Source: Tubiluchus corallicola (Eukaryota > Animalia > Priapulida). Taken from it: a stretch of 64,000 nt of DNA. Position numbers and translations under genes: made by a program. Positions within the stretch are counted from its first letter, which is position 1. Each line of letters starts with the position of its first letter. The stretch covers positions 62,001 through 126,000 of the forward strand of contig JAQGDQ010000203.1 in assembly GCA_030141605.1 (NCBI GenBank). The letters run 5' to 3'. Below the pieces are notes generated by a model. It searched no databases. It saw only the letters and a list, made by a program, of their open reading frames with translations, and was not told the DNA's origin. This document shows, piece by piece, positions 8,576 to 63,800 of this stretch.

Positions 8576-9716
8576 TATAGAATATTTTTAATGTATTTTA
8601 CATGATGATCAAATGCATCTTACAAATAACAGATTATCAAAATTACTAAAAAAATACTTCATAAGATATTTAAGACAATAGCACATTGATTGGTTAAAAG
8701 TACATTGAATATGACAAAAAACAAAAATTATTAAAAGCACTGAAAATTTAGCAAAATAATAAAAGCAATGCCATAAAACAGACACAATCGTAAAAAATAC
8801 AAGATTAGCTCAACCACAGAAGGCTTCATTAAAATAGTAAGTTTTTAGATTTTTTTAAATTATCAATTGACTTGACCACGCGTAACAGTAGAGCCAACGA
8901 ATTCCGCAATTTGGGGGCAGCAGAAGTGAATGATTTATCACAGCATGTGACTAGTCTGGTACGTGGTACTTCAAGATTACTTCTGATTGAGCTAGATCTT
9001 AATGCTCTGCGAGGGACATATAGTATAAGAAGGTCTGATATGTAAGTAGGAGCCAGATCATTGATTGCTTTGTAAGTTATCAAATTTATTTTAAATTTAA
9101 TTCTGTACTCAATAGGCAACCAGTGCAGTTCTCTGAGCATTGGATTGATATAGTCAAATTTCCGACAGTGAGTGATTAACCTAGCAGCTGAATTGTGTAC
9201 GTGTTGAAGCTTTTGAATTTGGTAGACAGGACGACCATATAATAAACTATTACAGTAATCCGGTCGGGAATTAACAAAAGCATGCACCAGGATTACACAA
9301 GTATCTTTCATGAGAAATGTTCCAATTTTTGATATATTTTGCAGACAAAAATATGAAGATGTATAAACACTGTTAACGTGAAAGGCCATCGATAGACAAT
9401 CGTCCATAATAACACCAAGGTTCCTAACATTACTATATATCTCGATACGATTATTGCCAACCACAATGGAGAACTGACTAATTTTTGAAAGTTGATGCCG
9501 AGTTCCAAAAATAATAATAACATCCATTTTGTCATCATTTAATAATAGTTTTAGAAAATTATTTGACATCCAAACACGGATTTCAGATACACAGTTTTTC
9601 AGAATTTCCCATGAGTTACTATAATCCGAATTGTTGGTTTCTATTGCAAGATATAACTGAGTGTCGTCTGCATAAAAATGGAATGCAACACCATGGGACC
9701 TAAGAATATCACTCAA
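8576..9716 (-). mobile_element. 5'-truncated L2-like LINE (C-terminal RT region plus 3' UTR)
   Basis: ORF 8829-9716: FHFYADDTQLY, WMSNNFLKL, VRNLGVIMD, HAFVNSRPDYCNSLLYG, LHWLPIEYRIKFKI, all typical of L2-clade ORF2. Confidence 0.9.
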
Positions 9717-10874
9717 GGAATTATCAGGACAGTAATGCTTCCATGTCTATGTTAATGAATTTCCTAGATGTCTTAGCTAAAAGCCAAAACTATGGGTAGA
9801 CAATGTAAAAACCTACAAGACCATACATGCACCTACATACAGGTATTGCTTCGATCATCAAAATACTGCTTACCAAACCTACTGACAAAAAAACAACAAG
9901 GCATTCTGTGCTTCGTATAAGATCTAGCAAAATACTTACTGGGTGGTGGATTTTTATCGCCAAATTATCATTTATTTTAGGATTGGAGCCATACTTAATT
10001 GAATTTCCTGTGTTAATCACATATAGAGTTGGGAGACTTGATTCTTGTGTTTGTTTACAAAGGCTTTATTCTTTTCCAAAAATCCGATTCTTCGGGTCGC
10101 TGCCGTACATCTTGTTGAAGTACGCATTAACAGTTTGTTTTGCTCCACTTGTAAATGATGTTTCAGCCAACTTGAGCCAAGACTAGTACACCTGCTAGGG
10201 AATCTCTTGTAATGATTTAATAAAATTAACAAGTTTAAAGTTTTTGTTCTTTATATCATAACTGTATGTTAATATATGGCTATCAAAATTAATAAAGAAT
10301 AATTAAGTTAAGTCAACCTAGCTCCGTACATGAAACCAGGAGCACGTGGTGATTCCATTATGTAAAGTAAAATTACAAGCAGCCAATCTGGCCTTATCTC
10401 GTTTTACTGTATTCCTTTATAATTCACCGAATCATTTACTTTATAATTTATCGAAAGCGGGTGTGAGCGGCTGGGGCAGCGAAGACGTTATCGAAGTGGT
10501 ACTACAAGAAAATTAAACTGAATCAACGCCTGGCGCTGTAGTCATACGTTCAATTCGTTTCAAGATTGTGTATTTTCAGAGAGAGGAGAAACTTTGAGCA
10601 GACTTGTTTGCTCGTTTTTTTCGATTAATTTACTTTTAGCTTGTACGTAGAATTTTGCAGATAACCAAAGTTGTAGTGAGTTAGACTGGCAGGTAGAATC
10701 TTAATCATTGTAACCATTGTTTGTATTAAAATTGAAACTAAAATAGTAAAAATTTATTCAATCTTAAACATCATGTACCAGACCTGTATCGTCGTGTTCT
10801 GTAAATAAGTCTAATCGTAATAGTAACCTATGACAATTTTTATGATTAAACATTCAAAGTTTCAAACCATGTGT

Positions 10875-13030: not shown

Positions 13031-13584
13031 CAATAATAATAATAGCTTATCTACATCTAGTTTACTTAGTAACAGTTTTTGGCATTTTCATTTAGGCTTT
13101 GCTTTTACATTACTTCATAAATGTTTTAGTGGTAATGTTTTGATGCTTATCTGGGCTTAGTGTGCACAATTTTTTTTGCGCTGACAGTAAAATTTTTATA
13201 CACACAGCTTTAAGGAAACACTGGTGCTTAACCGTTTATCTCCTTCATGGCTGTTTGTAGCAGCTGGTATAAATTTTAAACTGAAATAGCACTGGTAGCA
13301 TCAACATTGTATAAACGTAGTTTGTTATTCACAACAGTTATATGAGGATCAACCTGCCAAAAAATGGGAAAATGCACAAAATTTATTTATAGACTGAGAA
13401 AAGCAGCCATAATTTTATAACTGTTGATAATATCACTTACATGATTGGCACATGCTCTGGATTAGACTATTTACCTTACGTAAACAGCCTGTTTTTAGCT
13501 CTAAGCTTTGTGGGTGTAACTAATACATGGAATACTTTTTAAATCCGTATCAAAAATCCTTTATATTTCCCTTTAAGGCTCATA

Positions 13585-14328
13585 ATGCGGAGAAGAGGTG
13601 CTGGTGTTGGAGCCATTAACAAGTCTAAACTTGCCCAGGCAAGATATCGTGATAAAGGGTATGAGCTAGCTGCAGACGAATTGGAGCAAATGTCACAGCA
13701 ATTAGAAGCTTTCAGAAATAACCTTGAGGAGTTTGCAACCAAGTATAAAAATGACATTCGCAAAAATTCTCAATTCCGCCAGCAGTTTCAGGAAATGTGT
13801 GCCTCCATCGGTGTCGATCCCCTTGCGTCAAACAAAGGTTTTTGGTCCGAGGCACTGGGAGTTGGCGATTTCTACTATGAACTGGCTGTACAGATCGTTG
13901 AGGTTTGTTTAGCGTCAAGGCATAGAGATGGCGGCTTGATGAAGATGGATGAACTGCAGAGACGACTTGTAATATCTAGGGGTAAATCACGCCAAGCTCA
14001 GGACCTATCATTGGATGATGTACTACGAGCTGTTCGTAAACTAAAGATTCTTGGTAGTGGCTTCGCTATTATTCCAGTTGGTGCGGGATATCTTGTTCAG
14101 TCAATTCCTGGTGAATTAAATATGGACCATACTCTTGTGTTACAGGAGGCACAGGAGACAGGTTATGTTACTGAATCATTGCTACAGCAAAAATTAAGAT
14201 GGGAAAAAGAGCGTGCAAAAAGAGCTGTCGAACATATGGTAAAAGAGGGTCTCATCTGGGTGGATGATCAAGCTGCAGGAGAACGATACTATTGGTTTCC
14301 TGGTCTTTTTTCTGAAACGACGTACTGA
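13585..14328 (+). CDS. SNF8: ESCRT-II subunit SNF8/VPS22/EAP30, coding region intronless (247 aa)
   Basis: MRRRGAGVGAI..., FRQQFQEMCASIGVDPLAS, FWSEALGVGDFYYELAVQIVEVC, VQSIPGELNMDH, EGLIWVDDQ, YWFPGLF; full length for the family; acceptor ctttaag| at 13576-13577. Confidence 0.97.
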   Translation: MRRRGAGVGAINKSKLAQARYRDKGYELAADELEQMSQQLEAFRNNLEEFATKYKNDIRKNSQFRQQFQEMCASIGVDPLASNKGFWSEALGVGDFYYELAVQIVEVCLASRHRDGGLMKMDELQRRLVISRGKSRQAQDLSLDDVLRAVRKLKILGSGFAIIPVGAGYLVQSIPGELNMDHTLVLQEAQETGYVTESLLQQKLRWEKERAKRAVEHMVKEGLIWVDDQAAGERYYWFPGLFSETTY

Positions 14329-15289: not shown

Positions 15290-16114
15290 GTAAGTTTAGC
15301 AGCTTCTCGTGTTACTTGCTAGTACAAAGAGTTATCATGACAAATTACTATGGTATCAATGCTATTTACGATATTCAGTCAAAAGAATAAATTTTGTTGC
15401 ATTTGTATAAGAATCCCTTTACTGTGTCCAAGTACATGTAAGCTTGATTTCACTCGCCTTAATTGTCTGCACTTTTTTCATTATTAAAACACTAACTATA
15501 ATTATGTAATCGCATTTTTTGAGAAAATCCAATGATTACATGTAACAGATTATCAATGTGAAGATACTTAGTAAATTCCAGCATAGATGTAATTAATTAT
15601 TGTATCATTTATTGCATTTCTCTATCACTATGAGAAAGAATGAAGAGCATAAAACACATTTGAAATGTTTTCTTGCTCCCATAATTACATGGAATAAACA
15701 AGTTAGCAAGCAAAATTCAAGAATGCAAAATACTAGCTGAACCAAAACTTCCTGTAACAGACACTGACAAGAAACTGAAAGAGTGACATTCATGTCATAA
15801 TTAACAATTAAAATTAGTAAGTAATTTTTAAGAACACTAGTTAATAGTTGAATAAGTGCATAATTTGGAATGGTCATTGACGTAGAGCTCAATGTAGTAA
15901 GTTCCTCTAACTAATAAATAATGTAAAACTAGAACATTAAGTTTTAAGAAGGCTAGGTGAGTTAGAGGCAGCGGTGCGTGATGTTTCGAATAACTAGACC
16001 CATTATTTTGAGCAGCAACTATTGTACTGCAAGCTGTGTAAGTACCACTGCAACTAGATATTATATCATGTGTAGTTTTGAGCAATAATTTTTTTTGTTT
16101 AGATATGAGCCACA

Positions 16115-17707
16115 ATGACACAAGGGCAAAATGAAACACCAATGACAAGGCTAAAGAACAAAGAAAAAGACGCTACTATGACTAAAGTAGTGATACGACG
16201 CCTGCCACCTTCATTAACAGCTGAACAGTTTCTCGAGCAAATATCTCCTATACCTGAAAACAACTTTCTGTACTTTGTGAAAGGTGATATGAATTTGGGA
16301 CAAAATGCTTTTTCAAGAGCTTACATTAACTTCACTAATGCAGATGACATAATAAACTTCAAGGACAAATTTGACGGTTATGTCTTTATGAATAATAAGG
16401 GTGACGAGTTTCCAGCAGTTGTAGAATTTGCCCCATTCCAAAAAATTCCAAAGCAGAAGCAGAGAAGGAAGGACACTAAAATTGGAACAATTGAGGAAGA
16501 TTCTGATTATAAAAAATTCTTGGAGGAATTGAGTAAACCAGCAGAAGTTGTCATTCCAAGTGTAGATAACTGGCTGGAAGAAATTGAAGCAAAGGAGAAA
16601 CTGCAGAAAGTTGGAGCTGCAAAAGTGACCACACCACTAATTGAGTATATTAAACAGAAAAAGTTGGCTAAGATCAAGCTGCGAGAGGAAAGGAGAGAGG
16701 AACGGCGCCGTAGGGAAATAGAACGGCAAAAGTTACGCGAAAAAGAACGGCGCCGGAAACGTCTTGAGAAAGAGAAAGCTATAGTTGAGAAGGAGCGGCA
16801 GCAGCGATTTGAACAAGAAAATGCTAAACAGCTAAGGAAGTCAGGAACAGTAGAAAAAAGTGGTAAGTCGTTTACGACAAAATCAAACTCGGGGTCAGAA
16901 AAGCGAATGGAACAAAGCAACAGTGGTAGAGAGAGAGAATCATCTAAAAAAGGACAAGGTGACAATACACTTAAAGATAAATCACAAAAAGATGGTAAAA
17001 CCGATTGGCAGGAAAGCGAGGTGCACAACGACAGTGTAAACGATAATGCCAATGAAAACTATAGGAAAACATACAGCGGGAATAGAAGGGATTATAAAAA
17101 CAAGCAAATGGCTGATGGTGATGATCAGAGTTATGAGAAAAGTCGAAAAGAATATGATAAAAGTAGAGGAGACATTGGATATCAGTTTGAGAAAGAAAAG
17201 AAAGATGCTGAGAAGAAAAATACAGAAAAGGGCAGGCTTGAAAAAGAAGAAGGAAGCAAAAAGTTTTATGATGAGCGAGATGGATCTGAGGAAAATAAGC
17301 GAACAAGAGGTGGATTGGGAGACAAAAGATACGATCGAGGAAGAGTGAATGAAGATAGAAAAAAATCAGAGAAAAGTGAAAATATGGATAACAAGCACGA
17401 CACTGGAAAGAGACCAGATGCCTCAAATGTAAAGTTTGACTTGACTGGCAAAGATGAAAAGAAAACTTCTGAAGTGCAAAGTAGTGGTGAAAGTTTTGTC
17501 TCGATGAACAAAAATCCAGTGAAAAAACCGAATGACCAGAAAGGAGAAGTTAGCAGCAATGAACAGCAGCGAGTTAGGAAGCCTAAAAGACCTGACCTGC
17601 CCAGATACCAACCAGGACAGAGATCACGACAGATGGCTACTATGGAAGAAACTGCTCAGAGAACCAACAACAATTCTAGCAATCAAACTGCAACATCAGA
17701 AAATTAA
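16115..17707 (+). CDS. UPF3: Nonsense-mediated decay factor UPF3, coding region intronless (530 aa)
   Basis: Smg4/UPF3 RRM-like domain (TKVVIRRLPPSLT...FSRAYINF...FDGYVF...AVVEFAPFQKIP, GTIEEDSDYKKFLE, TTPLIEYI), charged coiled coil, and C-terminal EJC-binding-like motif RVRKPKRPDLPRYQPG; acceptor ttttgtttag| at 16101-16102. Confidence 0.95.
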   Translation: MTQGQNETPMTRLKNKEKDATMTKVVIRRLPPSLTAEQFLEQISPIPENNFLYFVKGDMNLGQNAFSRAYINFTNADDIINFKDKFDGYVFMNNKGDEFPAVVEFAPFQKIPKQKQRRKDTKIGTIEEDSDYKKFLEELSKPAEVVIPSVDNWLEEIEAKEKLQKVGAAKVTTPLIEYIKQKKLAKIKLREERREERRRREIERQKLREKERRRKRLEKEKAIVEKERQQRFEQENAKQLRKSGTVEKSGKSFTTKSNSGSEKRMEQSNSGRERESSKKGQGDNTLKDKSQKDGKTDWQESEVHNDSVNDNANENYRKTYSGNRRDYKNKQMADGDDQSYEKSRKEYDKSRGDIGYQFEKEKKDAEKKNTEKGRLEKEEGSKKFYDERDGSEENKRTRGGLGDKRYDRGRVNEDRKKSEKSENMDNKHDTGKRPDASNVKFDLTGKDEKKTSEVQSSGESFVSMNKNPVKKPNDQKGEVSSNEQQRVRKPKRPDLPRYQPGQRSRQMATMEETAQRTNNNSSNQTATSEN

Positions 17708-19140
17708 AATGCTGTTCAGTAAGGCCAGTATTATAATTGCACCGTTCAATTTGTGTTATCTTTTCATCTCTTTTGAAGCATGAACAGTCTGAACTTTTTT
17801 TAAATTGTTTTTTGGCAAACAAAGAAATTTGTTTTTATTCAAACAAAAATAATTGATTTTTGTTCATTTACAGGTCAACAAGATGACTACACTTATTTTG
17901 CTGATGCCTTTTCTAACAAATTCTATGGAGTTTGTTTTCACAAATCTTGTATATAGAACTATGAAAATTTGGCATTTTTAGAACTATTTTTTACTTTGAA
18001 ATATACCAAACAATGTATATGCAGTTTATTCATCTCATTTAAATGTTTGTGCCATTTTGCAGAAATCAGTCAAACAAGATTTCGGTGTAAATAATTTATT
18101 TTTGGCCGACAGAAGGAAGTTTCAGTCTTCTTATATGACTGCTGGTAAGATTGCTTTCTCTTGTTTTAGTGACACTGTTGTGTCAAAATTAAAGCGAACA
18201 TAAATAGAAATTTTGACATTACAAGCTGGTAAATTACCATTCAGCCCACAGGTATTAATGTTGACAGGGCCAGAAATTTGATAATTATCAAAGATAATCC
18301 TCCAACATTAGATAGCGCATCAGGGATGAATGCATACTCTGTGAAAAAACAAAACAGAGAATGGCAAATGAGATCATCCAAAAACTGTTTACTAGTGACC
18401 ACACATCCATTTTCTAACTAGCTTTAGTACTGCGTAACTTTCATAACCATGCATTACACCGAGACTTCTCAGTTATAGCGTTCCAATGAAAATGATGGAA
18501 AGTTTACAATAATAAAAAAGTTTTTGTATGAACATCATAATACATTATACAGAAGATCAAAACCAGAAAATAAAAAATTTATTTAATGTGGGTTCTGGTA
18601 GCCAACATACATCACCAATAACATCAGCCATATGGCTATAAATTAGTAAAAATCGCCAACACAATTCGAACACATAAATGTAAAATCAATGAAAACCAAT
18701 ATAGCACTGTTTACAAAAAGAATAATAGAAAATAACAAACAGTAATGAAGAACAAATAAAAATATATACTACTAGCTATAGAGTTTTGTTTCTTGATAAA
18801 CTGCATACTTTGACCCATTTGAAGTTTAGCAAATTTCTTTCATTCTGAGACAATATCTATTACTGTACATGCTTTTTCATCGTACTCCGTTTGGCACATT
18901 GAGAGTTGGTATGGTCGTCTACACTCTAATATGGTGAAACTGTGGCCTAACTAAATATCAAAAATGAGACACTGAACCAGCAGAGGCGTCTCAGTTGGAT
19001 GTAACCTTCCTCAATGGTGAACAGACAAACTGACTAGAAGCAAGTTCTTGACAGTCATTCCATTTATTTACTAAACTGATATTTATATAGGAAATCAAGA
19101 TAACTAGTAGTAGTACTGCGAGATAAGAATAATAGTAAAT

Positions 19141-19332
19141 ATTTATAGTTAAAAGCAACACAACTTTATTAAAACTTTACATTAAAAAGTTAAAATCATG
19201 CCAAACGTTTTGACAGGCTACTACTGTCATCATCAGTGATAAACAAATAGCAGCAGCCTGTCGAAACGTTTGGCATTATATTAACTTTAATGTAAAAGTT
19301 TTAATAAAGTTTTGTTGTTTTTAACCATAAAT
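19141..19332. mobile_element. Long palindrome resembling inverted Penelope-like element termini, with a minimal hammerhead-ribozyme core
   Basis: About 85-bp inverted arms. The minus strand reads CTGATGA-t-gacag-tagtagc-ctgtc-aAAACGTT; the plus arm reads ctgtc-GAAACGTT followed by AATAAA. Confidence 0.6.
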
Positions 19333-20975
19333 GTTTTTAAGTTCCTGTAATAAAAATTGACTTCATAAATATGTTTTGTAAATTGTTTAACAAATGGGAA
19401 AGTACACACCACCAGAAGCATCACACTCACAGATGGATGAATGCACTCCATGTGCTGCGAAAAGTTAATCATGCATTTACTTTAAACTATTTACAAAACA
19501 TTTTGAAAAACAGCAGTATCAGAGGATGCAGTTATGGTTAATAAATTCTCAATTAAAATACGTTATCACAAAATTTAAGCAAGCTCATTTTTCTTGAATT
19601 GCCTCAGAAACTCAAAGTAACTGTTTTTCAAATATTATAAACTTAATTTCGTGGTCGCGATGGGATGAGAAGCTCCAGACAGGACTGAATGTTCGGGAAT
19701 GGATTCAAGATTTGAAGGCGGTTTATAGGGTTGGAATTAGAACTACCCAAGCCCTAACACCTCTAGACTAGACCTTTACCTTGTGAAGATAAGTTATGCA
19801 TATGTAGTAGCTCCATGCAAGATGAGCAATATGTTGTAACACTTTGCGAATTGACTATTTGCGAGAAGCTCAATTTAAAATTTCACTAATATTGAAGAAC
19901 TTTTCTTTATTAAACCACTACTTTTTGGCAAATTTAAATACAGATGTTTTAGGTCTGCAGTCCAGTTTGAAATGTTTACATTAATTATTTCTTGGAATGA
20001 TAGTTTTGTCATTTGCTTTGTTATTGAAATTGTACCGAGAAATTTTCTTGGTCAGTTTTTTGACACTAAACTTACTACTTCTACTAACAGCTGCTTTAAT
20101 TTGAGCTAAACATGAAAGTTCAGATTAGGAGTCTGCAAGAAAGATGTGTTAACAGACACCAGTTAGGTTAACACTTAAACACGTGCTAATTCCAACCTTA
20201 TTCATTGTGACTACTCAGCTGTGTGAATCACGGTTAACATTTGTTAAGTGTGAATAACCATTAACAAACATATTAACATGCAATTTTCTTACACAAAGCC
20301 AAGTAATTAATGCAACAAACAGCTGACTTAGCCATGGTAACCTAAAATTAATAAACCGACCTATATATGAGACTATTAAGACATAAACATAGGATTAGCC
20401 CTTTTAAGCCATTGTTACTAAAAACTAAAGTACCTGAAGACTTTACCTTTGATTTAATTGTAGCACTTTAGTATTGATTATTAACTACAAGACATCCACC
20501 CTTTTCACTTAAATGTTCTTTCTTGCTGACAATTCTGTCAATTTTATACACTTCCTTCAATCACTTGTAGCATGAAACCAAATGTCTAAAAATACCATTA
20601 AACAGTCTAAACAAAATACCCCCTATAAAATACAATAGAGTACATATAAAGTATAGAATTATAATCAATAACATAATTGTATAAAAATCTTTCATCTGTT
20701 TGTATTAATAACTCAGAAAAAGTTAAGAACAGTTGAGTGGTTTACTGCTCAGCATCTGAATCAGAGAAATACCCTGCCTTTAACAGACAGTATATTACTA
20801 GGTTTGTTATAAATGACGTTGTCATGGAAACTGTAACAAACAGTAGGTAATTTTCTGGAAATAGTAGGGTGCGCCAGATAGGCAGTCTTACATCTTTGTC
20901 ACCAGGTGGTGTATTTACCGTGAAACTGTTTTCAATTTTAATGCTACTCCAAGGTGTTCTAGATTTCACTGATTG

Positions 20976-26900: not shown

Positions 26901-29900
26901 GCACTAAAAGAGAAGGAAGGAAATAATGGAATAGACATGGAAAGGGCTTAGCTATTGAAGTTAAAAAACACCAAACCTAGCCAATAGTAGCATCCATTGT
27001 TATCAATGACAACACCGTGGGACTCATGTTGCTCTATGTTTAACATGAAGCTGTAGCTGAGAAGGTCAGTCTGTGTTCAACATTGCAGGTCACAATGCGA
27101 GCACAAAGGTCACTCTACTGGTGATGTCCTGGTACTGCATGTCACAATGCGAGCATAAAGGTCACTCTATTGGCGATGACCTGGCACTGGAGGTCGCAAT
27201 GCGAGCACAAAGGGTCACTCTTTTGGTGAATGCCCGGTACTGCAGGTCACAATGAGAACACAAAAGGTCACTCTTTTGGTAAATGCCTGGTATTGCAGGT
27301 CACAATGCGAGCACAAAAGGCACTCTTTTGGTAAATGCCTGGTGCTGCAGTCATTAATGGCTGAAAGTGCCTTCACCAGAGTTTCCTGAGATAGTCTTCC
27401 ATTCAAGGTGTTTCGATGATATCAGCGCCAATGTTGAGAAAAGCATGCCACTTTGGTCCATTGGAGAGAAAGTCCTCTCAGTGGTCCACATCAATTGGTG
27501 TTTGCCTTCAGATCACACCATCTCCCACATGAGCTTGTCCGACATTTAGGTGCCAGTTCATTGGTGAAATGCTGCAGTGCATAAGTCACACCTGTCTACA
27601 GTCTTCTCTGCAGCAGAGTGCATAAGTCACACCTGTCAACAGTCTTCTCTGCAGCAGAGTGCATAAGTCACACCTGTCTACAGTCTTCTCTGCAGCAGAG
27701 TGCATAAGTCACACCTGTCTACAGTCTTCTCTGCAGCAGAGTGCATAAGTCACACCTGTCTACAGTCTTCTCTGCAGCAGAGTGCATAAGTCACACCTGT
27801 CTACAGTCTTCTCTGCAGCAGAGTGCATAAGTCACACCTGTCTACAGTCTTCTCTGCAGCAGAGTGCATAAGTCACACCTGTCTACAGTCTTCTCTGCAG
27901 CAGAGTGCATAAGTCACACCTGTCTACAGTCTTCTCTGCAGCAGAGTGCATAAGTCACACCTGTCTACAGTCTTCTCTGCAGCAGAGTGCATAAGTCACA
28001 CCTGTCTACAGTCTTCTCTGCAGCAGAGTGCATAAGTCACACCTGTCTACAGTCTTCACTGTAGCAGAGTGCATAAGTCACACCTGTCTACAGTCTTCTC
28101 TGCAGCAGAGTGCATAAGTCACACCTGTCTACAGTCTTCTCTGCAGCAGAGTGCATAAGTCACCTGTCTACAGTCTTCTCTGAGCAGAACACCCCAGTGC
28201 ATAAGTCACACCTGTCTACAGTCTTCACTGTAGCAGAGTGCATAATCCCTGCTACAGTCTTCTCTGCAGCAGAGTGCATAAGTCACACCTGTCTACAGTC
28301 TTCTCTGCAGCAGAGTGCATAAGTCACACCTGTCTACAGTCTTCTCTGTAGCAGAGTGCATAAGTCACACCTGTCTACAGTCTTCTCTGCAGCAGAGTGC
28401 ATAAGTCACACCTGTCTACAGTCTTCTCTGCAGCAGAGTGCATAAGTCACACCTGTCTACAGTCTTCACTGTAGCAGAGTGCATAAGTCACACCTGTCTA
28501 CAGTCTTCTCTGCAGCAGAGTGCATAAGTCACACCTGTCTACAGTCTTCTCTGCAGCAGAGTGCATAAGTCACACCTGTCTACAGTCTTCTCTGTAGCAG
28601 AGTGCATAAGTCACACCTGTCTACAGTCTTCTCTGCAGCAGAGTGCATAAGTCACACCTGTCTACAGTCTTCTCTGCAGCAGAGTGCATAAGTCACACCT
28701 GTCTACAGTCTTCTCTGCAGCAGAGTGCATAAGTCACACCTGTCTACAGTCTTCTCTGCAGCAGAGTGCATAAGTCACACCTGTCTACAGTCTTCTCTGC
28801 AGCAGAGTGCATAAGTCACACCTGTCTACAGTCTTCTCTGCAGCAGAGTGCATAAGTCACACCTGTCTACAGTCTTCTCTGCAGCAGAGTGCATAAGTCA
28901 CACCTGTCTACAGTCTTCACTGTAGCAGAGTGCATAAGTCACACCTGTCTACAGTCTTCTCTGCAGCAGAGTGCATAAGTCACACCTGTCTACAGTCTTC
29001 TCTGCAGCAGAGTGCATAAGTCACACCTGTCTACAGTCTTCTCTGTAGCAGAGTGCATAAGTCACACCTGTCTACAGTCTTCTCTGCAGCACAGTGCATA
29101 AGTCACACCTGTCTACAGTCTTTTCTGCAGCAGAGTGCATAAGTCACACCTGTCTACAGTCTTCTCTGTAGCAGAGTGCATAAGTCACACCTGTCTACAG
29201 TCTTCTCTGCAGCAGAGTGTATCCATTAGGAAGACCATCTTTAAGATTAATGAGTTCAATTTGCCCAAATTTCAAATCCGAGTTTTTCATCTCCTACAAG
29301 AGCTTGCCATCTGCTGAGCCCCATCTGTTTGCACTTGGATTCAGAATTATCTTTTCATACAGCAGCAGATGTGGCATGAACTTTGGTCAGGGTTGGCTCA
29401 AGATCGCCAAGGGACAGGAAATTTCACTATACTGTGCTCTTTTACAAAGATACTGGTTGCCTACCAGCATGTCAGCACCTCTGTTTGTCAGTCTTTACAT
29501 AGTCAGATTGTTTGATAAACTGCATGTTTATATGCTCATAGTTATAGAGAAAGAATATGAATTTAAATTTGAACATAACCAAGCTACCTGTGTCAGTTCA
29601 ATGCGTTCTTATAGAGGATAATACTTAGCTAGCTTTCAGCATTGTGATAATAGAAATGATTTAGATATTATTCGACAAGGCCTTTGTTCTATTGCACAGC
29701 AAACAAACTCATTAGAAAATTTGTTTATTGTACGAATGAAATAAAGAAGCAATTATTTATTGTGGAGAAAATTTGTATGATTATAATCTGCAACAGTTAA
29801 AAGTACCGTATAATATACAGATGAGGAAATTCTTTAATTGCAACTATGATTTTAGTGCTAGATCTATGTCTGTACAACTAAATTTAAAATACTTTGGTGT

Positions 29901-54974: not shown

Positions 54975-56600
54975 CTAGCTAAGGCCCCGCAAAAAGTTTT
55001 CCGTATAAATACACTTATAATCAATAATACGTGAACATCCTACATAGTCCTCCTTTATAGCGCAAAGCCATTAGCAGCTTTTACTGAATTAAAGTTATAA
55101 GGTTATAAGCAAAGTATGGATGACGTCAGAACAACAGCTTTGCGTCTGCAGTTTTCCGGCCGAAAATCGCCTGAAATGGAACCTCCAAACAACACAGCTC
55201 CCTATGGTGGATGTTTCCTAAAACGTAGCTTACACCATCGTGTATCCCTGTTTTTCCTCTTTCTAAAAAGTGATATGTCTCCTTCCAAGAGTCCCACCAG
55301 GCGCCGCTAGGACGTTTTTTCTATAGGCTGTTTGGCCAAAACTTCGAAAACATCAGGAGTTCGGTCCGGGAAAACGCCGGTCACGTAGCCCTCCCGCGAA
55401 ATCTAAATTATGACTATGACACCCACCGTTGAATGGGCTATCTAACCATTACTGACACTGCCCCCGTCACGTTCCTGTTCTCTAGAAATAAGAGGTATAA
55501 GTTGCAATTTTTTCAAAAAACGGCTGAAGAATGTCCATTTTTGGAGGTTTTTCGCCCTCCGTTCGTCCCAGTGGGCCCGATTCGAAAAATAAACCACCCC
55601 AATGGCAAATCTGTGGACCCGGACCTTTCGTTTGATGTATTGATCGCCGAAAATGGTGCCGTCGTCGGTTTTATATATATATACCCATATACCACCGAAA
55701 TTAATATATAGACTAGCCAAACCCCGCAAAAAAGAATTTTGCACATAAATGAACACACAGTCTACACCACACCACCCACACCATACCACCCCACCACACT
55801 ACCACACCACACCGCCCACACTTTCCACACCAGTCACACCACAGAACCCACACCACACTGCAGCGCACCACACCATACCACCAAACCACAACACCCACAC
55901 ACCACACCACCTACATCATACCACACTACCCACACAACACCCACCACCCCAAACCCACCAGATCACATGGTAATTATATTGATAACGATGATGATGATGA
56001 TGGCGACGACGAGCATCAACACCAACAACACAGCAGCACAGTGAAACCATGCAAAATATTTTGCACAAAATTGAAATTGTATGTTATGATAAATGTTCTT
56101 ATACCCACCAATGATCAATGATACACGCACATTCTACGTAGTGTTTGCAAGCTGCTCATTTTGATGGACTACTATTATAACACTTACATTAGCAGCTTTT
56201 ACTGAACAAAATTATAGGCAGAGTATAATTAATGACGTCACAACAGAGGCTTTGCGTCAGCAGTTTTCCAAGCGAAAATCGCCTGAAATGGAACCTCCAA
56301 TCAACTCATTACAGCTCCTCACGCTGGGCGTGTTCTAAAAATAAAGAACTATATATCGCCTTCCAAGAGTCCCACCAGGCGCCGCTAGGACATTTTTTCT
56401 AGGCTGTTTGATCGAAATTTCTAAAAAATTGGGAGTTGGGTCCGGGAAAACGCCCGTTGCGGGACGCCATAGACCTCTCGCGAATTCTAAATATGACTGT
56501 AACACCCACTGTTGAATGGGCTATTCAACCATTGCCAGCACACCCATTCCGGATCTCTAGAAATAAGAGGTAAAAGTTTTGCAAAAACGGCTGAAAATGG
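54975..56600 (-). mobile_element. Head-to-tail dimer of a non-autonomous Helitron-like element
   Basis: Copy 1 spans 55712-54975 (minus strand TC...CTAG|T). Copy 2 3' end CTAG at 55716-55713 abuts the copy 1 TC. About 430 bp of internal sequence is duplicated (55070-55530 vs 56189-56600); subterminal gcaaaa..ttttgc hairpin. Confidence 0.7.
55752..56040. repeat. CA-rich low-complexity (CACCA)n tract followed by (GAT)n
   Basis: accacaccaccc... inside Helitron-like copy 2. Confidence 0.85.
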
Positions 56601-56619
56601 TAAATGGATCTAATTAATG

Positions 56620-57250
56620 CTACTGAGATCAAATGATAAACTGCCAGCCAGAAATTTTCTATTGGAATTAATGGAGAAAAAATTGAAAGAAAGGATCATG
56701 CCAAATGTTTGGGAATGTATATTGATGAATACTTAAATTGGAAAATTCATATTATTTAAATAAAAAACAAAATAAGTAAAACTTTCGCTATACTCTATAA
56801 ATTACGTAATGCAATGAATGTGAACGATATAATGACAATTTATTATAGTTTGGTTTACCCATACCTGATATATGGTTTAATGTTATGAGAAAGTGTTAAC
56901 AAGTCAAACTTGCAAGTATTCAAACAACTCAAAATAAAATACTTAGTACGATACATTCGGGATCGTATGACTATTCCCCTAGTGTCATCTGTCAAATATC
57001 AAAAACTCTAAAAATTAAAGAACTTAATGAACACTTACTGCGTTTTATTTTTATGTCATTATAAATTTTACCATGGTTTCAAACAAATTTATTTTAAATA
57101 TTTGAATCTGGTAAAGAGATTACTAGAATTCCAATACGCAAAATTTCTTTCTTGTGCTGACTACAAAATTAAAGCAAATTTTTAAAACACAAATTTTTTA
57201 CAGCGCCGTTAATTGCAATAAGTATTCTATGGCGCCTAACAACAATTAAA
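56620..57250 (+). mobile_element. Decayed LINE RT C-terminal fragment
   Basis: KCLGMYIDEYLNWKIHI and YYSLVYPYLIYG motifs; frame broken. Confidence 0.7.
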
Positions 57251-57660
57251 TAAAGGCATCAGCATTATAATTAAAATTTAAATAGATCATAATAAAACCC
57301 AGTGAATTAAACCAGACACTGTACACAACGTGAAGTAGTGAACTTAGTTCGAAAAGGCTAAGATGTCCTTTTTTGAAATGATAATTTTTAAATCACTTCA
57401 CTGTGATTTAAATATGCAAATTGGATTCCTTGATTCCAAAATAATGTATTATCACTAAAATAGCTCACATAGGATGAATAATGAACAAGTTGTCAGTTGT
57501 CAGTTGTCCGGTGCACATCGTTTGTCTCGTGCTCCGGTTGCTAATTATACCAGTTAGTGTTGAATAGATAGTGATTAGGCCGTGAGGCCAAGGCTGTACA
57601 AATTTACTTATGTTAAAAGATACTACGTCGAACAAAGTATATGTTAAAAGACATACATGA

Positions 57661-59214
57661 ATGGCAAGGAAAAGTTGCACGCTTTGCAAAAATGCAAAAA
57701 ATCCAGTAAATAAAAATCAGCTATTTCTTGCAACGTGCGAAAGGTGCTTCAAAAAACATAGGCAAACGGCGAATATGGGAAATGATGGACACGAGGCGGC
57801 AGAAATTGTGTTTCCCGACTTCGTACTTGTTGGTGATCCAGAGGGCGAACGATATAAACAAATGCTAATTGCCTTGCAAATAAAAACCAAAAATGAGGAA
57901 AAAGAGAGTAAAAAGACAATTCAATGCTTGGAGTCAAAACTAGCTGCCAGCTATAAAGAGCAGTCAACTCTCATCGAAAAGGTTCATAAATTATCAACGG
58001 AACTCTCTGAACTACAAAAAAGAAAGCGAAATGTAAGCAACCAAACAAGTGATAATTCCTCCAAAGATCCCAGTCACACAGATGAAGCAAGTCAAACTTT
58101 GCTTGTGAATGGAGACACCTCCTCATCGAAACACGGCAATAATGACCTTCCATCGCAGGGTGAAACCTTGCAGGAAAAGGAAACTTACAATGCCACAATA
58201 ACTGTGAATCAAAGAAGGAAAAATCATAAGACCATACATGCAACCACTCAAACGCTAGTCCTGGGAGACTCACGGACCGTATACTTAAATCCAAAGGACA
58301 TCGGGCAAAACGTCCAGGTACACTCATACAGAGGCTTAACATTAGAAGAGTTAAGCACAAAAGTGTTAAACCATTATCCAGCTATGAAACTTGAAAATGT
58401 GATCATCGCTTGTGGTGTAAATGACATAAGACGGCTAGCGCAAAAATGAGACGAGGTTGGACAGCAAATCGACAAAGAATCATCAGTTAGAGACATCATT
58501 ACAATTGCAGACAACTGTGCAAAAAACATTGCAAGTAAGTTTAAAGCTGCAAACATTTTTATTTGTAATATACTGCTGACTTCAAAAAGTAAGCATTTTA
58601 ATGCAAAACCATGTAATATCTTTCTGACAAACGAGCTTATACGCTCTTTCAATAATGATCTAGTCTATTTAGCTAACAAAGAGGGCTATTTATTGTGCAA
58701 CATTCAAAGTCATTTTTTAGCTGAAGGGTTAATGGCAAGAGACGGTTTACATTTAAGTCGTGCTGGTGTATCAAAATTAGCAGAACGACTGAACTTATGT
58801 TTACACAATGATCCTAAACGTTGGTACGTGAAAACAAGACGCAAGCCAATGTCCCATACAAACCCATACCAACACAATTATGCAATTTCGCGCCTAAATA
58901 ACTCGTTTAATTTAAGTATTAGTTCATCTCACAATACCAGCTATTCAGACGCAGTTAAGAAACCTGGTCTTCTCCCAACGCCAGTAATTAACGACCCACA
59001 GCGAACCTACTCCGTTTCGAACCGGAGAGAGCCATCTGAACGAAGCAGTTTGTACTACACAGAATCGGCTAAAGCTCATTATCCTAATAAATGTTCTACA
59101 ACACTGCCAAGCCAAAATGAACCGCTGCTGTTAACTCAGGAACCAGTTCTAAAATCCGAGATTGAAAACATACTAACCAAAGCCTTTAAAGAGCTTATCT
59201 CCAAGTTCATATAG
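57661..59214 (+). pseudogene. LINE ORF1: Cys-pair Zn finger, coiled coil, SGNH/GDSL esterase (517 codons, one internal TGA)
   Basis: CTLC...CERC; heptad-rich segment; LVLGDS, ACGVND, RDGLHLS. Frame is continuous except TGA at 58447-58449. Confidence 0.85.
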
Positions 59215-59310
59215 GCCTAGTATCGTTTAGCTTGGTTTTAGACATTACTCTGAACTTTAAAGCTAGTCTGCGTAAACCTGTTATAAAACTCTTTTTTTTA
59301 CTATTCTATT

Positions 59311-62300
59311 ATGATTTTAATGATGACACTGAATAACAGAAAATTTTTAGCACTGCTGCTAGTGAATTTTTACATAATATGGCAAAATAGGCCAATCCAT
59401 CCTAACTCGTGTAAAGATTATAACGTAACAATTGTGTATACTAGTATTATAATAACAATTATCTCACCCACGTTATTACATAATAGGAAATATTTACTTC
59501 TTATAGTACTGTATTCTATACAAGCCCTTTTACTCGCAACCGATATTAGTATCCTTATGATCGTTCTAAAATTAATTTACCACGCATGTGTAACGTTCTA
59601 CTGTGTAAGCTTGATACTATGCTGCCGTATTACTGCAAAAAAACTGCAAGTTAAAGTTATTTTATTTGTGTTAATAGGTACATTTTGGAAACCATACGAA
59701 TTTACTTCTTGTATCATAGTTGATATTTCTAACGTATCTTATCATAAAATTACCAAATTTATTTGTGATTATGGGAGCCTTTGTATATTTAACGCCAAAT
59801 ATCAAACAGTTAAGTTCTTTTATTGTAACTATGCTTACGTCTTAGTTATACTACGTACATTACTATACATACTAAAACTGAAAATGATCTACGTAACAGT
59901 AATTTGTAATGTAATGACTAAAGGTAATTTAAACAACTTTTTCATTGCTTTTCCTGTAAATAGCGATAGAATAAGACACTCTATGCAATTTATTTTAAAA
60001 AGATTTGTATCCATCTTAAAAGTTGTGTACCTCGGTGCTATAAGACAAATGCGTCATGTCAATCTAAAATACGTAGCACTAAAAAAATTGGAAAAATTAC
60101 AGATTTCATCTAAATTTGAAAGCACTCTATACTCATGTTCTGAACTGGCTTACATTTTAACCATAATTCGTTTACTACTTATACTTGGTGGTATCGAAAC
60201 TAACCCTGGACCCATTTTGCCAAATAATAATAATAATAACACCAACAATAATAATACCAGTGATGAGCTAAAAGAATTCATGATTACTTATAAAAAGAAC
60301 ATCAAATTTCTAAATATAAATATTCAAAGTCTCGTCAAAAAACACTGGCTGCTGAAAGATACAATTCACGCCACCGAAAATCTGATTGTAGGCATAACAG
60401 AAACTTGGCTACATAAACAAATACTTAGCAACACTATAGAATTACCTAATCACACATTAATAAGAAGAGATCGATGTAAAAATAAGAAAGGTGGAGGGGT
60501 TGCGATGTATATACCTTCACACCTGAGACCACAAGAAATGAAAAGCATCAGAACCGGCAAGATTGAATCTGTTTGGTGCAGCATTGAGAACTATGTAATA
60601 GGAACTATATATAGACCACCCAATCTCAAACACAAAACATTTTTCAAATACTTTAGTGAAGAACTAGAACGCAGTGTTTTCGAAAATAAAAAGTTCTTAT
60701 AATGGGCGATTTCAACCTTGATATTTTAGCTACAAACACACTGGCATACAAAACATACACCGAGCTCTTAAAACAATATAATGTCCACATACTTAACAAC
60801 AATAAACCTACTCGAATTTCTAAAACATCAGCCACAGTAATCGACCATTTCATTTCGAATAGTAACAATAATTTCGTAGCATATGATACTTTTCCGTGTG
60901 ATTATTCAGATCATCATTTCATAATATTAGTAGATAAAATGACCCCACAGCATAATAATAACCAAAATTCAGTCTGGCATTTAATGAGAGACTACGCCCA
61001 ATACAACAAACATTCATACTTAATCGACTTAGCAAAAATGAACTGGACCTCCGTATATATGACTGATAAAATAGATACACAAGTTAATATTCTGACATAT
61101 AATGTCGAATATTGCCTTAATGTACATGCACCATATAAAAACGTAAAGCAAATCCCACAACAAAGCAAACTCTATAACGAAAGTACCTGGACAACACCTG
61201 AACTTGACAAACTAAGAATAGCGAAAAACAGAATGTATAATATATGGGAAAAGAACAAAACTAAAAACAATCATAACAATTATAAAAAAAAAGAGAAATC
61301 AATTTAATAATCTTAATAAATGCTTGAAAAATAAACATATACAACAACAATGTAAAAACGCAACAAATACCAAAGAAAAATGGAAAATTATTAACAATGT
61401 AATAAATAAATGCCGTAACAAACTAATGCGTGTTGACGAAATTAAGATCAACAACACTGTTATTACAAAACCCAAAGATATTGCCAACGCGCTAAATGCA
61501 ATATTCCTGAATCTTGGAAATTTTAAGGGAGTGGCTTCTCATATTAGCAATAATATAATTAATAAATTAAAAAACAAATCGTCTAACACAGTATTCTCGT
61601 TCAAAAGCGTCACAGTAGGAGAAATTAACGACATATTAAATAACCTAAGTTCCAACAAAGGGAGTGGACCATCAGATATTCCTATCAAAATTCTAAAAGA
61701 TAGCGCATCTGTAATAGCCCCGCATATGACTTACATTACTAATCAGATAATTATGAGAGGCGAATTTCCAACGGTATGTAAAATGGCAAACGTGACTCCA
61801 ATCCATAAAAAAGATCCAAAATGTGATCCCATGAATTATCGCCCAATTTCCGTAATCCATTGTTTCGGTAAAGTTTGGGAAAGGGTAATTTATGATCAGA
61901 TAAATTCATATGTAAATAAACATGAACTTTTATCAAAACATCAGTTTGGCTTCCGTAAACACCATTCAACCATTGACGCCCTAATACACACAACAGAAAA
62001 TTGGAGACATAGTTTAGACAACAAGCACTACATTTTAGCAGCATTTTTGGATTTAAGTAAAGCTTTCGATAGCATTAATCACGAACTACTTTACGATAAT
62101 TTAAAACAAATCGGATTAGATTCGATATCGTTAAAACTGATACAAAATTATCTCAAAGATAGACAACAACGAGTAAAGTTAGATACAACCAACTTTTCTG
62201 ACTGGGCCACGTTAAATAGAGGTATACCGCAAGGAACACTACTAGGTCCGTTATTATTTTGCCTATATATAAACAACATATCCAGTGTATTAAAACACTC

Positions 62301-63274
62301 ACAAATAACGCAATACGCTGATGACACTACAATCTACATAGCCCATGAAAATGTCCAAACTGCAAAAAATTATTTAGAAGAAGATATAAAAAAATATAAA
62401 TATGGCATTTAGTCATTACAAGCTAAAAATGAATAATGACAAAACAGAATTCATGATACTGTCACCCTCATTAAATACTAATGATGCATCATCAACCACT
62501 TTGACAATAGATAATGCTGTAATCAAACAAACTAACAATGTTAAATTCCTGGGCATACAAGTAGACAATAATCTTTCATGGGATGATCACTTTAATAACA
62601 TATACACAAAAATGGCATCTAGCACATCATATCTCCGACAAGTTAAAGGGCAACTAACAAAGGACACTAAAACACTAATATATAAAACTTTAGTTCTACC
62701 ACACTTCTTATATGGATGTACGCTACTTCAAAAAACCAAAAGAGAAAATTACTTAAAATTAAATCTCCTTCAAAACTATGCGTTGAGATTGATAGCTGGG
62801 TACTCATACAAACACAAGGCAGGTAGACAAAAATTCAAAGCTTCAACAACTAACCTGAGAAAAACTTTAAAATTCCCAATCATTGAAGCACACAAAGAAT
62901 ATTTTACTCTGCTTTTTATATTTAAATACATTAACAACATCAGCAAACCATTCCAGAATAACAGATTTACCTTTTTTCCAAATCCTATCGTTAATTCCAG
63001 AACATTCAATCTAAAACAAATTAGGACAAATACCCACTATGGAACGAACTCTGTAATCAAACAAGCAATTTTACTTTGGAATTCTCTACCATTACAGGTT
63101 AAACAAATCAAGTCCCTATCAGCATTTAAAACAAAATTAAAATCACTAATATTAACCAGATATGAAATACCATCACACCAGTACGACAACATACACACTA
63201 ATTCCGAATTCATATACCCACGGCCATATTTATTAAATCATAGTTTTTTATTTTTTTTATTTTTTTGTGTATAG
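59311..63274 (+). pseudogene. LINE ORF2: hydrophobic leader, 2A-like motif, AP endonuclease, reverse transcriptase (three frameshifts)
   Basis: NINIQSL, GITETWL, GGGVAMY, IYRPP, GDFN, IDH, SDH (APE); NYRPIS, QFGFR, FLDLSKAFDS, GIPQGTLLGP, YADD (RT). Frameshifts near 60690, 61290 and 62390. Confidence 0.9.
60151..60213 (+). other. 2A-like (StopGo) ribosomal skipping motif
   Basis: YILTIIRLLLILGGIETNPG|P directly upstream of the APE domain; differs from the D(V/I)ExNPGP consensus by G for D. Confidence 0.75.
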
Positions 63275-63439
63275 TTGTAAATATGTTTGATTTTATTCGT
63301 CATTACTGCACAGTAGTTTAGATTGCACTGACGCATTTGCCTTCAGCAGTGTAAGTTTTTATTAACTAACACTGATTGATTATCTCTATAAAGTTTTTAT
63401 CAGTGATTATCAATGTTTTTAATGGCAAATAAATAATAA

Positions 63440-63800
63440 AACAAGAATGCACTCAGTAGAAAGCAGATCTCTGCCAAAGTCGAACAATGGTATTCTTATT
63501 CATCTGATTTTTTTGATTAAAAAATTTAATACAAAGATAAACAAACAAATATACAATAATGTACATGTGTTGGCATTATATAGACTAGCAAAAGACTCAC
63601 ATATTTGTTCATTAAATGAATTTATAATCAATAATGCTCGAATGTTCCACATGGTGTTTCTCTACCTTTTCACCAATAATTTTGGGGGTAATAGACTGAC
63701 AAATATATACGTATCAAGTCATTATAAATTATAGACAACGTTACACACTTTTACAAGCGTGAATTTCTAGAAAAGGAACTGGAACTAACACGCTGTTGTT
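63440..63800. mobile_element. Terminus of a probable Helitron/Helentron-type non-autonomous element
   Basis: aaaacaagaatgcactcagtagaaagcagatctctgccaa resembles the ACAAGA-type terminus with subterminal hairpin (gcag-at-ct-ctgc); recalled resemblance only. Confidence 0.35.

What the first reader, a model, noticed from the sequence alone, without database searches (positions are those of the whole stretch)
59311..60210. LINE encodes a 300-aa multi-hydrophobic-segment protein fused to its APE-RT through a 2A site
Seen: ORF2 opens 300 codons before the 2A motif. This leader has roughly 5-7 long Leu/Ile/Val/Tyr/Cys-rich stretches bounded by basic residues, and an internal repeat (LNNRKFLALLL / LHNRKYLLLIV). 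It is T-rich, unlike the A-rich APE-RT region, and stays stop-free over 900 very AT-rich nt, which is unlikely by chance. Established: 2A-like motifs occur before the APE domain of some non-LTR elements, and LINE ORF1 esterases have been linked to membrane binding. Inference: the element may make a third product, a polytopic membrane protein released by ribosomal skipping, which could anchor the RNP to membranes or aid vesicle-mediated spread. I know of no characterised LINE membrane protein of this kind.
Basis: partly seen in the sequence, partly recalled or inferred. Interest (0 to 1): 0.8.

Follow-up and report, generated by a model that had tools for sequence, protein, structure and literature searches.

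The report
Oversized greasy leader before LINE 2A
A young jumping gene (LINE) opens its enzyme-coding frame with an unusually long, 300-codon, greasy stretch that has no known relatives and ends in a known type of ribosome-skipping signal; it is likely a disposable leader that is cut off and limits enzyme output rather than a new membrane protein, because much of its greasiness follows from its T-shifted DNA.

Summary
A CR1-group LINE (esterase-type ORF1, APE-RT ORF2) has 300 stop-free codons (about 22 stops expected) from the first ATG after ORF1 to a GIETNPG|P 2A-like site. High-depth sibling contigs keep this frame, so it belongs to the active family. The 'new polytopic membrane protein' reading is only weakly supported. 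Four segments pass Kyte-Doolittle 1.6, against 1.7 in random open frames of the same composition (p 0.07), and one of them is the 2A helix. Mean hydrophobicity is only modestly above such nulls (p 0.006-0.04), the stop-riddled +1 frame is nearly as greasy, and silent sites are T-shifted like the element's UTRs. No homologue or confident fold was found. Synonymous enrichment among sibling variants is weak (15 of 40; 25-30% expected). Pre-2A leaders in 11 other LINEs are 50-267 aa and often signal-like, so this is an oversized form of a known feature. Best reading: ribosomes re-start at the first AUG, so the leader must stay open; the 2A then frees part of APE-RT and throttles output. Related GGIExNPGP peptides skipped in 9 of 15 published tests.

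The parts
57488..63441 (+). Full-length, recently decayed copy of a multi-copy CR1-group LINE (5' boundary approximate)
   Evidence: Contigs of DNA runs cover the whole stretch with a 3' depth ramp; many loose ends at 63433 beside AATAAA at 63428-63433 and 63435-63440. The 5' start at the (AGTTGTC)x3 repeat is inferred; no target-site duplication found.
57661..59214 (+). ORF1, 517 codons: N-terminal CxxC pair, coiled-coil-like region, SGNH/GDSL esterase (GDS, GVND, DGLH motifs); interrupted by TGA at 58447-58449 in this copy
   Evidence: Pfam Lipase_GDSL_2 E=2.3e-4, below the curated cut-off. Motif reading is from the sequence and recalled knowledge of SGNH blocks.
59215..59310 (+). 96-nt inter-ORF spacer, 44% T, without any ATG
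59311..60210 (+). 300-codon ORF2 leader: hydrophobic, basic (33 K/R, 10 D/E), no homologue found
   Evidence: searches
59329..59391 (+). N-terminal signal-like stretch (residues 7-27; basic RK then LALLLVNFYII)
   Evidence: Best 11-mer hydropathy 2.56; p=0.12 against a composition null; marginal insertion estimate
59419..59703 (+). Cluster of hydrophobic segments at residues 37-57, 62-82, 87-107 and (marginal) 111-131
59818..59880 (+). Hydrophobic segment, residues 170-190; weak resemblance to the pre-2A helix 105 residues downstream
   Evidence: p 0.006-0.06, post hoc
60154..60213 (+). 2A/StopGo-like 20-mer ILTIIRLLLILGGIETNPG|P, with 4 Leu at positions -19 to -10
   Evidence: motif classes from PMC12846837 and PMC13405545
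60211..61307 (+). Asn-rich linker (AAT repeat 60223-60256) and APE endonuclease, frameshifted near 60687 in this copy
   Evidence: Pfam Exo_endo_phos_2 E=2e-4; BLASTP to APE-RT proteins E 3e-18; sibling contigs differ by an indel at 60687
61222..63274 (+). Reverse transcriptase and C-terminal region, frameshifted near 61284 and 62388 in this copy
   Evidence: Pfam RVT_1 E=1e-32; indels in sibling contigs
63275..63441 (+). T-rich 3' UTR (43% T) ending in AATAAA repeats

Best explanation
The 300 open codons ahead of the 2A-like site are likely a disposable, fast-changing leader that must stay stop-free because ribosomes would re-start at the first AUG after ORF1, and the 2A-like site is predicted to cut the leader off part of the time while limiting how much endonuclease-reverse transcriptase is made. 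Steps: (1) SHOWN: ATG 59311 is the first ATG after the ORF1 stop, 96 nt away, and is in frame with APE-RT. (2) INFERRED: ORF2 is entered there by termination-reinitiation, so any stop in the leader kills the element, and this alone explains the open frame. (3) SHOWN: the leader DNA is T-shifted even at silent sites, like the element's spacer and 3' UTR. INFERRED: it grew from UTR-like sequence, perhaps with internal duplication, and much of its hydrophobicity is a by-product. (4) INFERRED from published peptide screens: at the Leu-rich GGIETNPG|P some ribosomes skip and resume, giving Pro-APE-RT, while others release the leader and stop, or read through. (5) INFERRED: the greasy leader probably engages SRP and the ER, so free leader and uncut fusions would be membrane-bound or degraded. 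The net effect is a low dose of free ORF2p, i.e. self-restraint. A modest selected excess of hydrophobicity, for example to route waste to the ER, fits this model.
For: Open frame far beyond chance and kept in high-depth sibling contigs; the 7 listed indels and 1 stop variant are minority rows. No ATG in the spacer (chance of none is roughly 0.2, so only consistent). Fourfold-site AT skew is -0.05 in the leader against +0.14 to +0.34 in the six other coding parts (Fisher p=0.008 against the rest of ORF2); spacer and 3' UTR are 43-44% T. The +1 frame, with 41 stops, has mean hydropathy 0.63 against 0.75. Random open frames of this composition give 1.7 segments at KD 1.6 against 4 observed (p=0.07). 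T-rich non-coding DNA tends to encode TM segments (PMC7005711, abstract). No homologue among 1.84 billion representatives (one spurious tandem-repeat hit), and no similarity to 11 other pre-2A LINE leaders. Odon et al. propose 2A as a down-regulator of APE/RT (PMC3708506). Snell and Matreyek report that 3-6 Leu in this helix go with reduced protein, and that 59% of ORF2p 2As tested reduced abundance. Of the five tested peptides closest to this one (13-15 of 20 identical), 1 skipped and resumed, 2 fell off with reduced protein and 2 did not skip (7 of the 15 were counted by script, the other 8 by eye at 12 or fewer).
Against: Mean hydropathy stays above every null: p=0.0055 (independent bases), 0.025-0.044 (Markov order 1-3), and z=+2.5 against -1.4 to +1.0 for the 11 comparators. 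Codon-position bias also exceeds the open-frame null (p=0.018). Variants shared by several sibling contigs are 5 of 9 synonymous (p 0.05-0.10), which hints at protein-level constraint. A 300-codon leader is a large mutational target for something disposable; most comparators manage with 50-141 residues. Reinitiation, skipping and ER targeting were not measured.
Confidence: 0.5

Rival explanations
1. The leader is a selected, multi-pass membrane protein released by StopGo. It would work with the lipid-binding ORF1 esterase to hold the RNP on membranes or load it into vesicles.
For: 4-6 hydrophobic segments with basic flanks and few acids. Hydropathy excess p 0.006-0.04 and codon-position bias p=0.018. 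15 of 40 listed variants are synonymous against 25-30% expected (p 0.05-0.19), rising to 9 of 16 in a post-hoc subset that omits this copy's own differences and the old low-depth contigs (p 0.007-0.03). ZfL2-1 ORF1 esterase binds liposomes (PMC3905857, passages). 4 of 11 comparator leaders start with a significant hydrophobic stretch (combined p=5e-4).
Against: Silent-site T shift and a nearly as greasy +1 frame. Segment number and clustering are not above nulls (p=0.07; residue shuffle p=0.73). No homologues and AlphaFold2 pLDDT 44.8 with no helical bundle (single sequence, so weak). No conservation with other pre-2A leaders. No functional data.
Confidence: 0.25
2. The 2A-like motif is largely inactive here, and ORF2p is made as one membrane-tethered fusion of about 1,300 residues that is released later or works from the ER or nuclear envelope.
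For: The only tested peptide with the identical GGIETNPGP core was 'nonskipping' (PMC13405545 supplement). Many CR1- and Crack-clade 2As had little or no activity (PMC3708506).
Against: 9 of 15 tested GGIE peptides skipped and resumed and 2 more released the upstream chain. G at this position is a functional variant. No 2A core substitution appears among the 40 of 45 sibling variants shown.
Confidence: 0.15
3. ORF2 really starts at Met225 or Met247, giving a normal 54-76-residue pre-2A leader. The upstream 224 codons would be a remnant of a captured gene or a separate small ORF that has not yet decayed.
For: Met247 (nt 60049) and Met225 (nt 59983) fit the 40-80 aa spacing reported for 2A LINEs.
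Against: Both have pyrimidine at -3 and lie behind 12 or more upstream ATGs. No donor gene was found. Sibling contigs about 7-9% diverged already carry the leader colinearly (records 14, 18, 20). No stable RNA structure suggesting internal entry was found (one window at z -2.7, downstream of the 2A).
Confidence: 0.1

Closest known systems
2A-bearing APE-type non-LTR retrotransposons (Rex1, L2, L2A, Crack, CR1, Ingi clades; Odon et al. 2013, PMC3708506; read parts 1-4 of 6), especially those that keep ORF1 (CR1-26_BF, CR1-53_BF, CR1-1_LG)
   Same: 2A-like motif in the N-terminal region of ORF2, directly before APE; ORF1 present; proposed down-regulation of APE/RT.
   Different: Reported 2As lie about 40-80 aa from the ORF2 start, against 300 here. 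The core is G-I-E-T-N-P-G-P instead of D(V/I)ExNPGP. The leader is hydrophobic over most of its first 200 residues.
ORF2p-associated eukaryotic 2A-like 'leucine stall-helix' peptides (Snell and Matreyek 2026 preprint, PMC13405545; abstract, passages, section 13, supplement files 1, 3, 4 searched)
   Same: Leu-rich helix before G(D/G)xExNPGP; variable N-terminal sequence before the 2A. 7 of the 16 ORF2-like rows that I saw have the 2A starting at residue 163 or later.
   Different: The long extensions named in the text are Josephin or OTU deubiquitinases and pentacotripeptide repeats. None of the passages seen describes a multi-hydrophobic orphan leader.
Esterase-type ORF1p LINEs such as ZfL2-1 (Schneider et al. 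2013, PMC3905857; passages)
   Same: ORF1 = coiled coil + SGNH esterase, no RRM detected.
   Different: No pre-2A leader appears in the passages seen; membrane binding there comes from ORF1p, not from ORF2.
Signal-sequence 2As of sea-urchin NLR proteins (Roulston et al. 2016, PMC4981915; passages)
   Same: A hydrophobic N-terminal sequence ending in 2A splits product between the secretory path (uncut) and the cytosol (skipped): a working model for this leader.
   Different: Those are about 26-aa peptides in host genes; here the leader is 300 aa in a transposon and ER targeting is untested.

Membership tests
APE-type non-LTR retrotransposon (LINE) | ORF2 with APE endonuclease followed by RT | tested here: met
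   Pfam Exo_endo_phos_2 E=2e-4 and RVT_1 E=1e-32; BLASTP to APE-RT proteins
APE-type non-LTR retrotransposon (LINE) | Dispersed multi-copy family with 5'-truncated copies and a 3' A-rich or simple tail | tested here: met
   3' depth ramp, hundreds to thousands of contigs laid, loose ends at 63433 beside AATAAA; depth is only a rough guide to copies
CR1 group (CR1, L2, L2A, L2B, Rex1, Daphne, Crack, Kiri) | RT phylogeny with named references | tested here: inconclusive
   In a 20-row tree without named references the RT has no supported sister (best identity 40%) and falls outside the QHGF and QSAY/SAAFD sets, which I read from memory as CR1 and L2. Crack/Daphne-like motifs are a recalled resemblance; those labels are themselves not monophyletic (PMC13343379).
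Esterase-type ORF1p class | SGNH esterase preceded by coiled coil, no RRM | tested here: met
   GDS, GVND and DGLH motifs; Lipase_GDSL_2 E=2.3e-4, below the curated cut-off; no RRM hit
2A/StopGo peptides | Core (D/G/C/N)(V/I)ExNPGP | tested here: met
   GIETNPGP at residues 294-301; core definition in PMC12846837
2A/StopGo peptides | Hydrophobic, Leu-rich helix upstream of the core | tested here: met
   4 Leu at -19 to -10; helix at 276-292 in the low-confidence model
2A/StopGo peptides | Measured peptide-bond skipping | not testable with these tools
   Proxy only: 9 of 15 GGIE peptides skipped; the identical-core one did not
Polytopic membrane protein | Several membrane-spanning helices beyond what composition gives | tested here: inconclusive
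   4 segments at KD 1.6 against 1.7 in nulls (p=0.07); 5 by rough insertion energy against 1.5 (p=0.013); mean hydropathy p 0.006-0.04
Polytopic membrane protein | Conserved sequence or fold under purifying selection | tested here: inconclusive
   No homologues; pLDDT 44.8; no Foldseek match at E 0.001; synonymous share 15 of 40
Polytopic membrane protein | Membrane insertion shown experimentally | not testable with these tools
   Needs expression and fractionation

The most novel reading that the evidence does not exclude
This LINE has built, from its own T-rich inter-ORF spacer, a de novo multi-pass membrane protein that is released by StopGo as a third gene product. With the lipid-binding ORF1 esterase it would assemble the RNP on ER membranes or load it into vesicles: an env-like function in a non-LTR element, and a case of a TM-first gene birth inside a transposon.
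Probability: 0.2. Interest if true: 0.8.

Novelty: new variant of a known kind. Interest (0 to 1): 0.38.

Why it matters
2A sites at the start of LINE ORF2 are known, but what the piece ahead of them does is open. This element is an extreme case: 300 open, orphan, greasy codons in a young family. That makes it a good test object. Swapping the leader for a neutral open frame would tell whether pre-2A leaders are throw-away throttles or real membrane proteins. If the latter, LINEs would have a third, membrane-acting product that could bear on RNP localisation and horizontal spread. If the former, it shows how reinitiation plus StopGo lets junk sequence grow inside an essential frame.

Tried and rejected
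No whole genome is held for this window and no second copy lies in the window, so siblings were read only through contigs of public runs. Homologue searches for the leader found nothing: word-indexed searches at near and shorter lengths, and full HMMER of 1.84 billion representatives (one E=9e-4 hit, a tandem-repeat pseudo-ORF). The 'longer' length class was searched with residues 270-463 only, giving 9 APE-RT proteins of which none of the 9 has NPGP. ESM Atlas: no usable hit for residues 1-300, and only 0.85 hits to unnamed short proteins for 170-345. Pfam (only Med22, below cut-off), NCBIfam and PDB sequences gave nothing for the leader. AlphaFold2 without alignment gave pLDDT 44.8, and its Foldseek search in the viral library found no match at E 0.001; the model is too poor to weigh. 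Metagenome scan: 1 distant locus, L001, with too little upstream DNA, from a scan that stopped at 2 of 64 parts. Viral contigs: no RT relative, and none of the 122 motif loci encodes APE or RT like this element. Rfam found no match, and the sliding folding scan showed no structured region in the leader. No RNA holder was listed, which is no evidence on expression. No splice-like joint across the leader is listed (15 of 37 joints shown). A three-fold duplication of the leader was tested: only the B-C pair was above shuffles (p about 0.007, post hoc), with A-B and A-C not. No target-site duplication was found. Literature searches turned up no description of a multi-hydrophobic LINE ORF2 leader; the library lacks most subscription papers and Repbase. 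The Rao et al. supplement (PMC12338488) held none of four GG(I/V)E motifs. Three files of the Snell supplement (main PDF, media-3.gz, media-6.csv) could not be read and may list more ORF2 leaders.

Full report
ANATOMY. The window is AT-rich animal-type genomic DNA. Between about 57490 and 63441 lies a full-length LINE on the + strand. ORF1 (57661-59214) has a CxxC pair, a coiled-coil-like region and an SGNH esterase (motifs GDS, GVND, DGLH; Pfam Lipase_GDSL_2 E=2.3e-4, below cut-off), with a TGA at 58447-58449. A 96-nt spacer without ATG follows. ORF2 starts at 59311 with 300 codons, then LLLILGGIETNPG|P (cut after residue 300, nt 60210), an Asn-rich linker, APE and RT (Pfam E=2e-4 and 1e-32). 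This copy is frameshifted near 60687, 61284 and 62388; sibling contigs differ from it by an indel at each place. The clade could not be fixed. In a 20-row RT tree without named references the element has no supported sister (best identity 40%). 'CR1 group, Crack/Daphne-like' rests on recalled motifs.

IS THE OPEN LEADER REAL? Yes. It has 0 stops in 300 codons against 22.7 expected; none of 2000 shuffles had fewer than 10, and no shuffle or Markov sample gave an open frame over 158 codons. It is part of the family. Four runs hold 59-68% of the element's words (2 studies; one may be the source sample). In run X2 the listed high-depth contigs over the leader (depth 2051-3501) have no gaps, while contigs 7-9% diverged lie at depths of 166-191 in X2 and 18-22 in X3. 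Read loosely, that is 11-21 young copies, though the tool warns that depth is no copy number. All 7 indel rows are minorities. Three of the places (59637, 59818, 60081) are homopolymer runs seen in X3 but not in X2 of the same sample. The single stop variant is in a low-depth diverged contig. This copy differs from the majority at 7 leader sites and has 4 lesions in 4.6 kb of other coding sequence, so only 0.8 would be expected in the leader. The open frame therefore reflects the active lineage.

IS IT A MEMBRANE PROTEIN UNDER SELECTION? The evidence is mixed and leans weak. Four segments reach Kyte-Doolittle 1.6 and six reach 1.4; a rough insertion estimate (recalled scale) gives 5 favourable and 2 marginal, one being the 2A helix. 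But stop-free frames drawn at random from the same bases are already greasy (mean hydropathy 0.26, 1.7 segments). The observed values exceed that with p=0.0055 for the mean, 0.07 for segment number at KD 1.6 and 0.013 by insertion estimate. With Markov nulls the mean excess is p=0.025-0.044. Hydrophobic residues are not clustered more than in residue shuffles (p=0.73). The +1 frame of the same DNA, with 41 stops, scores 0.63 against 0.75. Fourfold-degenerate sites have AT skew -0.05 against +0.14 to +0.34 in the other six coding parts (p=0.008 against the rest of ORF2), like the T-rich spacer and 3' UTR. So the T shift is a property of the DNA, not only of second codon positions. T-rich non-coding DNA is known to encode TM-like segments readily (PMC7005711, abstract). 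Among the 40 of 45 variants shown, 15 are synonymous, 24 non-synonymous and 1 a stop, against 25-30% synonymous under neutrality (p 0.05-0.19). Those shared by several contigs or at multi-copy depth are 5 of 9 (p 0.05-0.10), and a post-hoc subset gives 9 of 16 (p 0.007-0.03). This hints at constraint but does not show it. No homologue, family or confident fold was found. The reported LNNRK/LHNRK repeat is at chance level. A weak similarity between residues 161-187 and the pre-2A helix 266-292 (p 0.006-0.06, post hoc) may mark an old internal duplication.

COMPARISON WITH OTHER PRE-2A LEADERS. A degenerate 2A pattern found 29 loci in prokaryote genome contigs. Twelve encode APE and/or RT downstream; I infer that they are eukaryotic contaminants. 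One (L128, broken) and the 17 without APE or RT were dropped. In the remaining 11, the leader from the first Met is 50-141 residues in ten and 267 in one (L148, mostly hydrophilic); two are open at a contig edge (L137, L149). None is more hydrophobic overall than its composition predicts (z -1.4 to +1.0, against +2.5 here), but 4 of 11 begin with a significant signal-like stretch (combined p=5e-4; this leader p=0.12). None aligns with this leader. Odon et al. place 2As 40-80 aa from the ORF2 start and propose down-regulation of APE/RT (PMC3708506, parts 1-4 of 6). In the Snell and Matreyek table, 7 of the 16 ORF2-like rows that I saw have the 2A at residue 163 or later, and their text names deubiquitinase and repeat domains in such extensions. 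Earlier unreviewed notes of this scan describe 100-153-aa hydrophobic pre-2A leaders in other genomes; these are leads only. So a hydrophobic or long pre-2A leader is a recurring layout, and this one is the longest hydrophobic example that I saw.

DOES THE 2A WORK? GIETNPGP fits the expanded core (D/G/C/N)(V/I)ExNPGP, in which G is as common as D (PMC12846837, passages; also PMC6249498, passages). Of 15 GGIE peptides in the Snell screen, 9 skipped and resumed, 2 fell off with reduced protein and 4 did not skip. The closest (15 of 20 identical) fell off with reduced protein, and the one with the identical 9-residue core did not skip. Four leucines at -19 to -10 put this peptide in the range linked to reduced protein. 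Partial skipping with throttling is the best guess.

MECHANISM. Shown: geometry, open frame, family membership, composition. Inferred: reinitiation at the first AUG after ORF1 (known for other two-ORF LINEs; Odon introduction) forces the leader to stay open. The 2A releases part of the ribosomes' output as Pro-APE-RT and lowers the dose. The greasy leader probably draws the nascent chain to the ER, as shown for signal-like 2As of sea-urchin NLRs (PMC4981915, passages), so that free leader and uncut fusion are sidelined. I give this 0.5; a selected membrane protein 0.25; an uncut tethered ORF2p 0.15; an internal start 0.1.

NOVELTY. Searches found no paper describing a multi-hydrophobic LINE ORF2 leader, within a library that lacks Repbase and most subscription journals. 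The 2A-before-APE layout is known, so this is a new variant of a known kind: notable for its size, with a one-in-five chance of being a de novo membrane protein. Interest 0.38.

Noticed in passing
window 58447-58449: In-frame TGA splits ORF1 inside the esterase. It is not among the 40 of 447 variant rows shown, so whether it is private to this copy or a family feature (read-through) is unresolved; a diverged contig lacks 3 nt at 58449.
   Followed up: partly
window 59330-60225, run X1: In run X1 (kind not on record) contig depth over the leader is about 25, against 45-180 over ORF1 and 300-440 over APE/RT, with no cover at 60106-60225. The tool warns that contig depth cannot rank parts, so this is no evidence; a raw-read RNA run would settle it.
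   Followed up: no
window 59791-59871 and 60106-60186: Residues 161-187 resemble the pre-2A helix 105 residues downstream (p 0.006-0.06, post hoc), a possible relic of internal duplication; the DNA word TTTACT(T/A)CTT(A/G)TA occurs three times in the leader.
   Followed up: partly
window 56550-57260: Decayed C-terminal RT fragment of another LINE directly upstream of the element (read).
   Followed up: no
window 8829-9746 (-): 305-codon open C-terminal RT fragment of an L2-type LINE (FYADDTQLY; clade name recalled).
   Followed up: no
window 13543-14328 and 16109-17707 (+): Two long uninterrupted host ORFs that look like VPS22/SNF8 and UPF3 (names recalled, not tested), each apparently in one exon.
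   Followed up: no
window 27576-29222: Tandem array of about 82-bp units at about 96% identity; also a 200-nt inverted repeat at 19137-19336.
   Followed up: no
P0002: APE-RT protein with an N-terminal OTU-like domain (DGDGHCL motif, recalled) and no NPGP, echoing the DUB-ORF2 fusions in PMC13405545.
   Followed up: no
L126: A single frame of about 2,000 codons with RT/RNase H-like sequence and two near-identical GDVEPNPGP 2A motifs, in a contig filed under a bacterial MAG.
   Followed up: no
L140, L144, L147: Three 2A LINE leaders share an N-terminal motif of the form (W/Y)RxxxG(L/N)(F/H)Y; the window's leader lacks it.
   Followed up: partly
L124-L152: At least 12 of 29 loci from prokaryote genome contigs encode animal-type LINE domains, i.e. 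probable host contamination of MAGs.
   Followed up: partly
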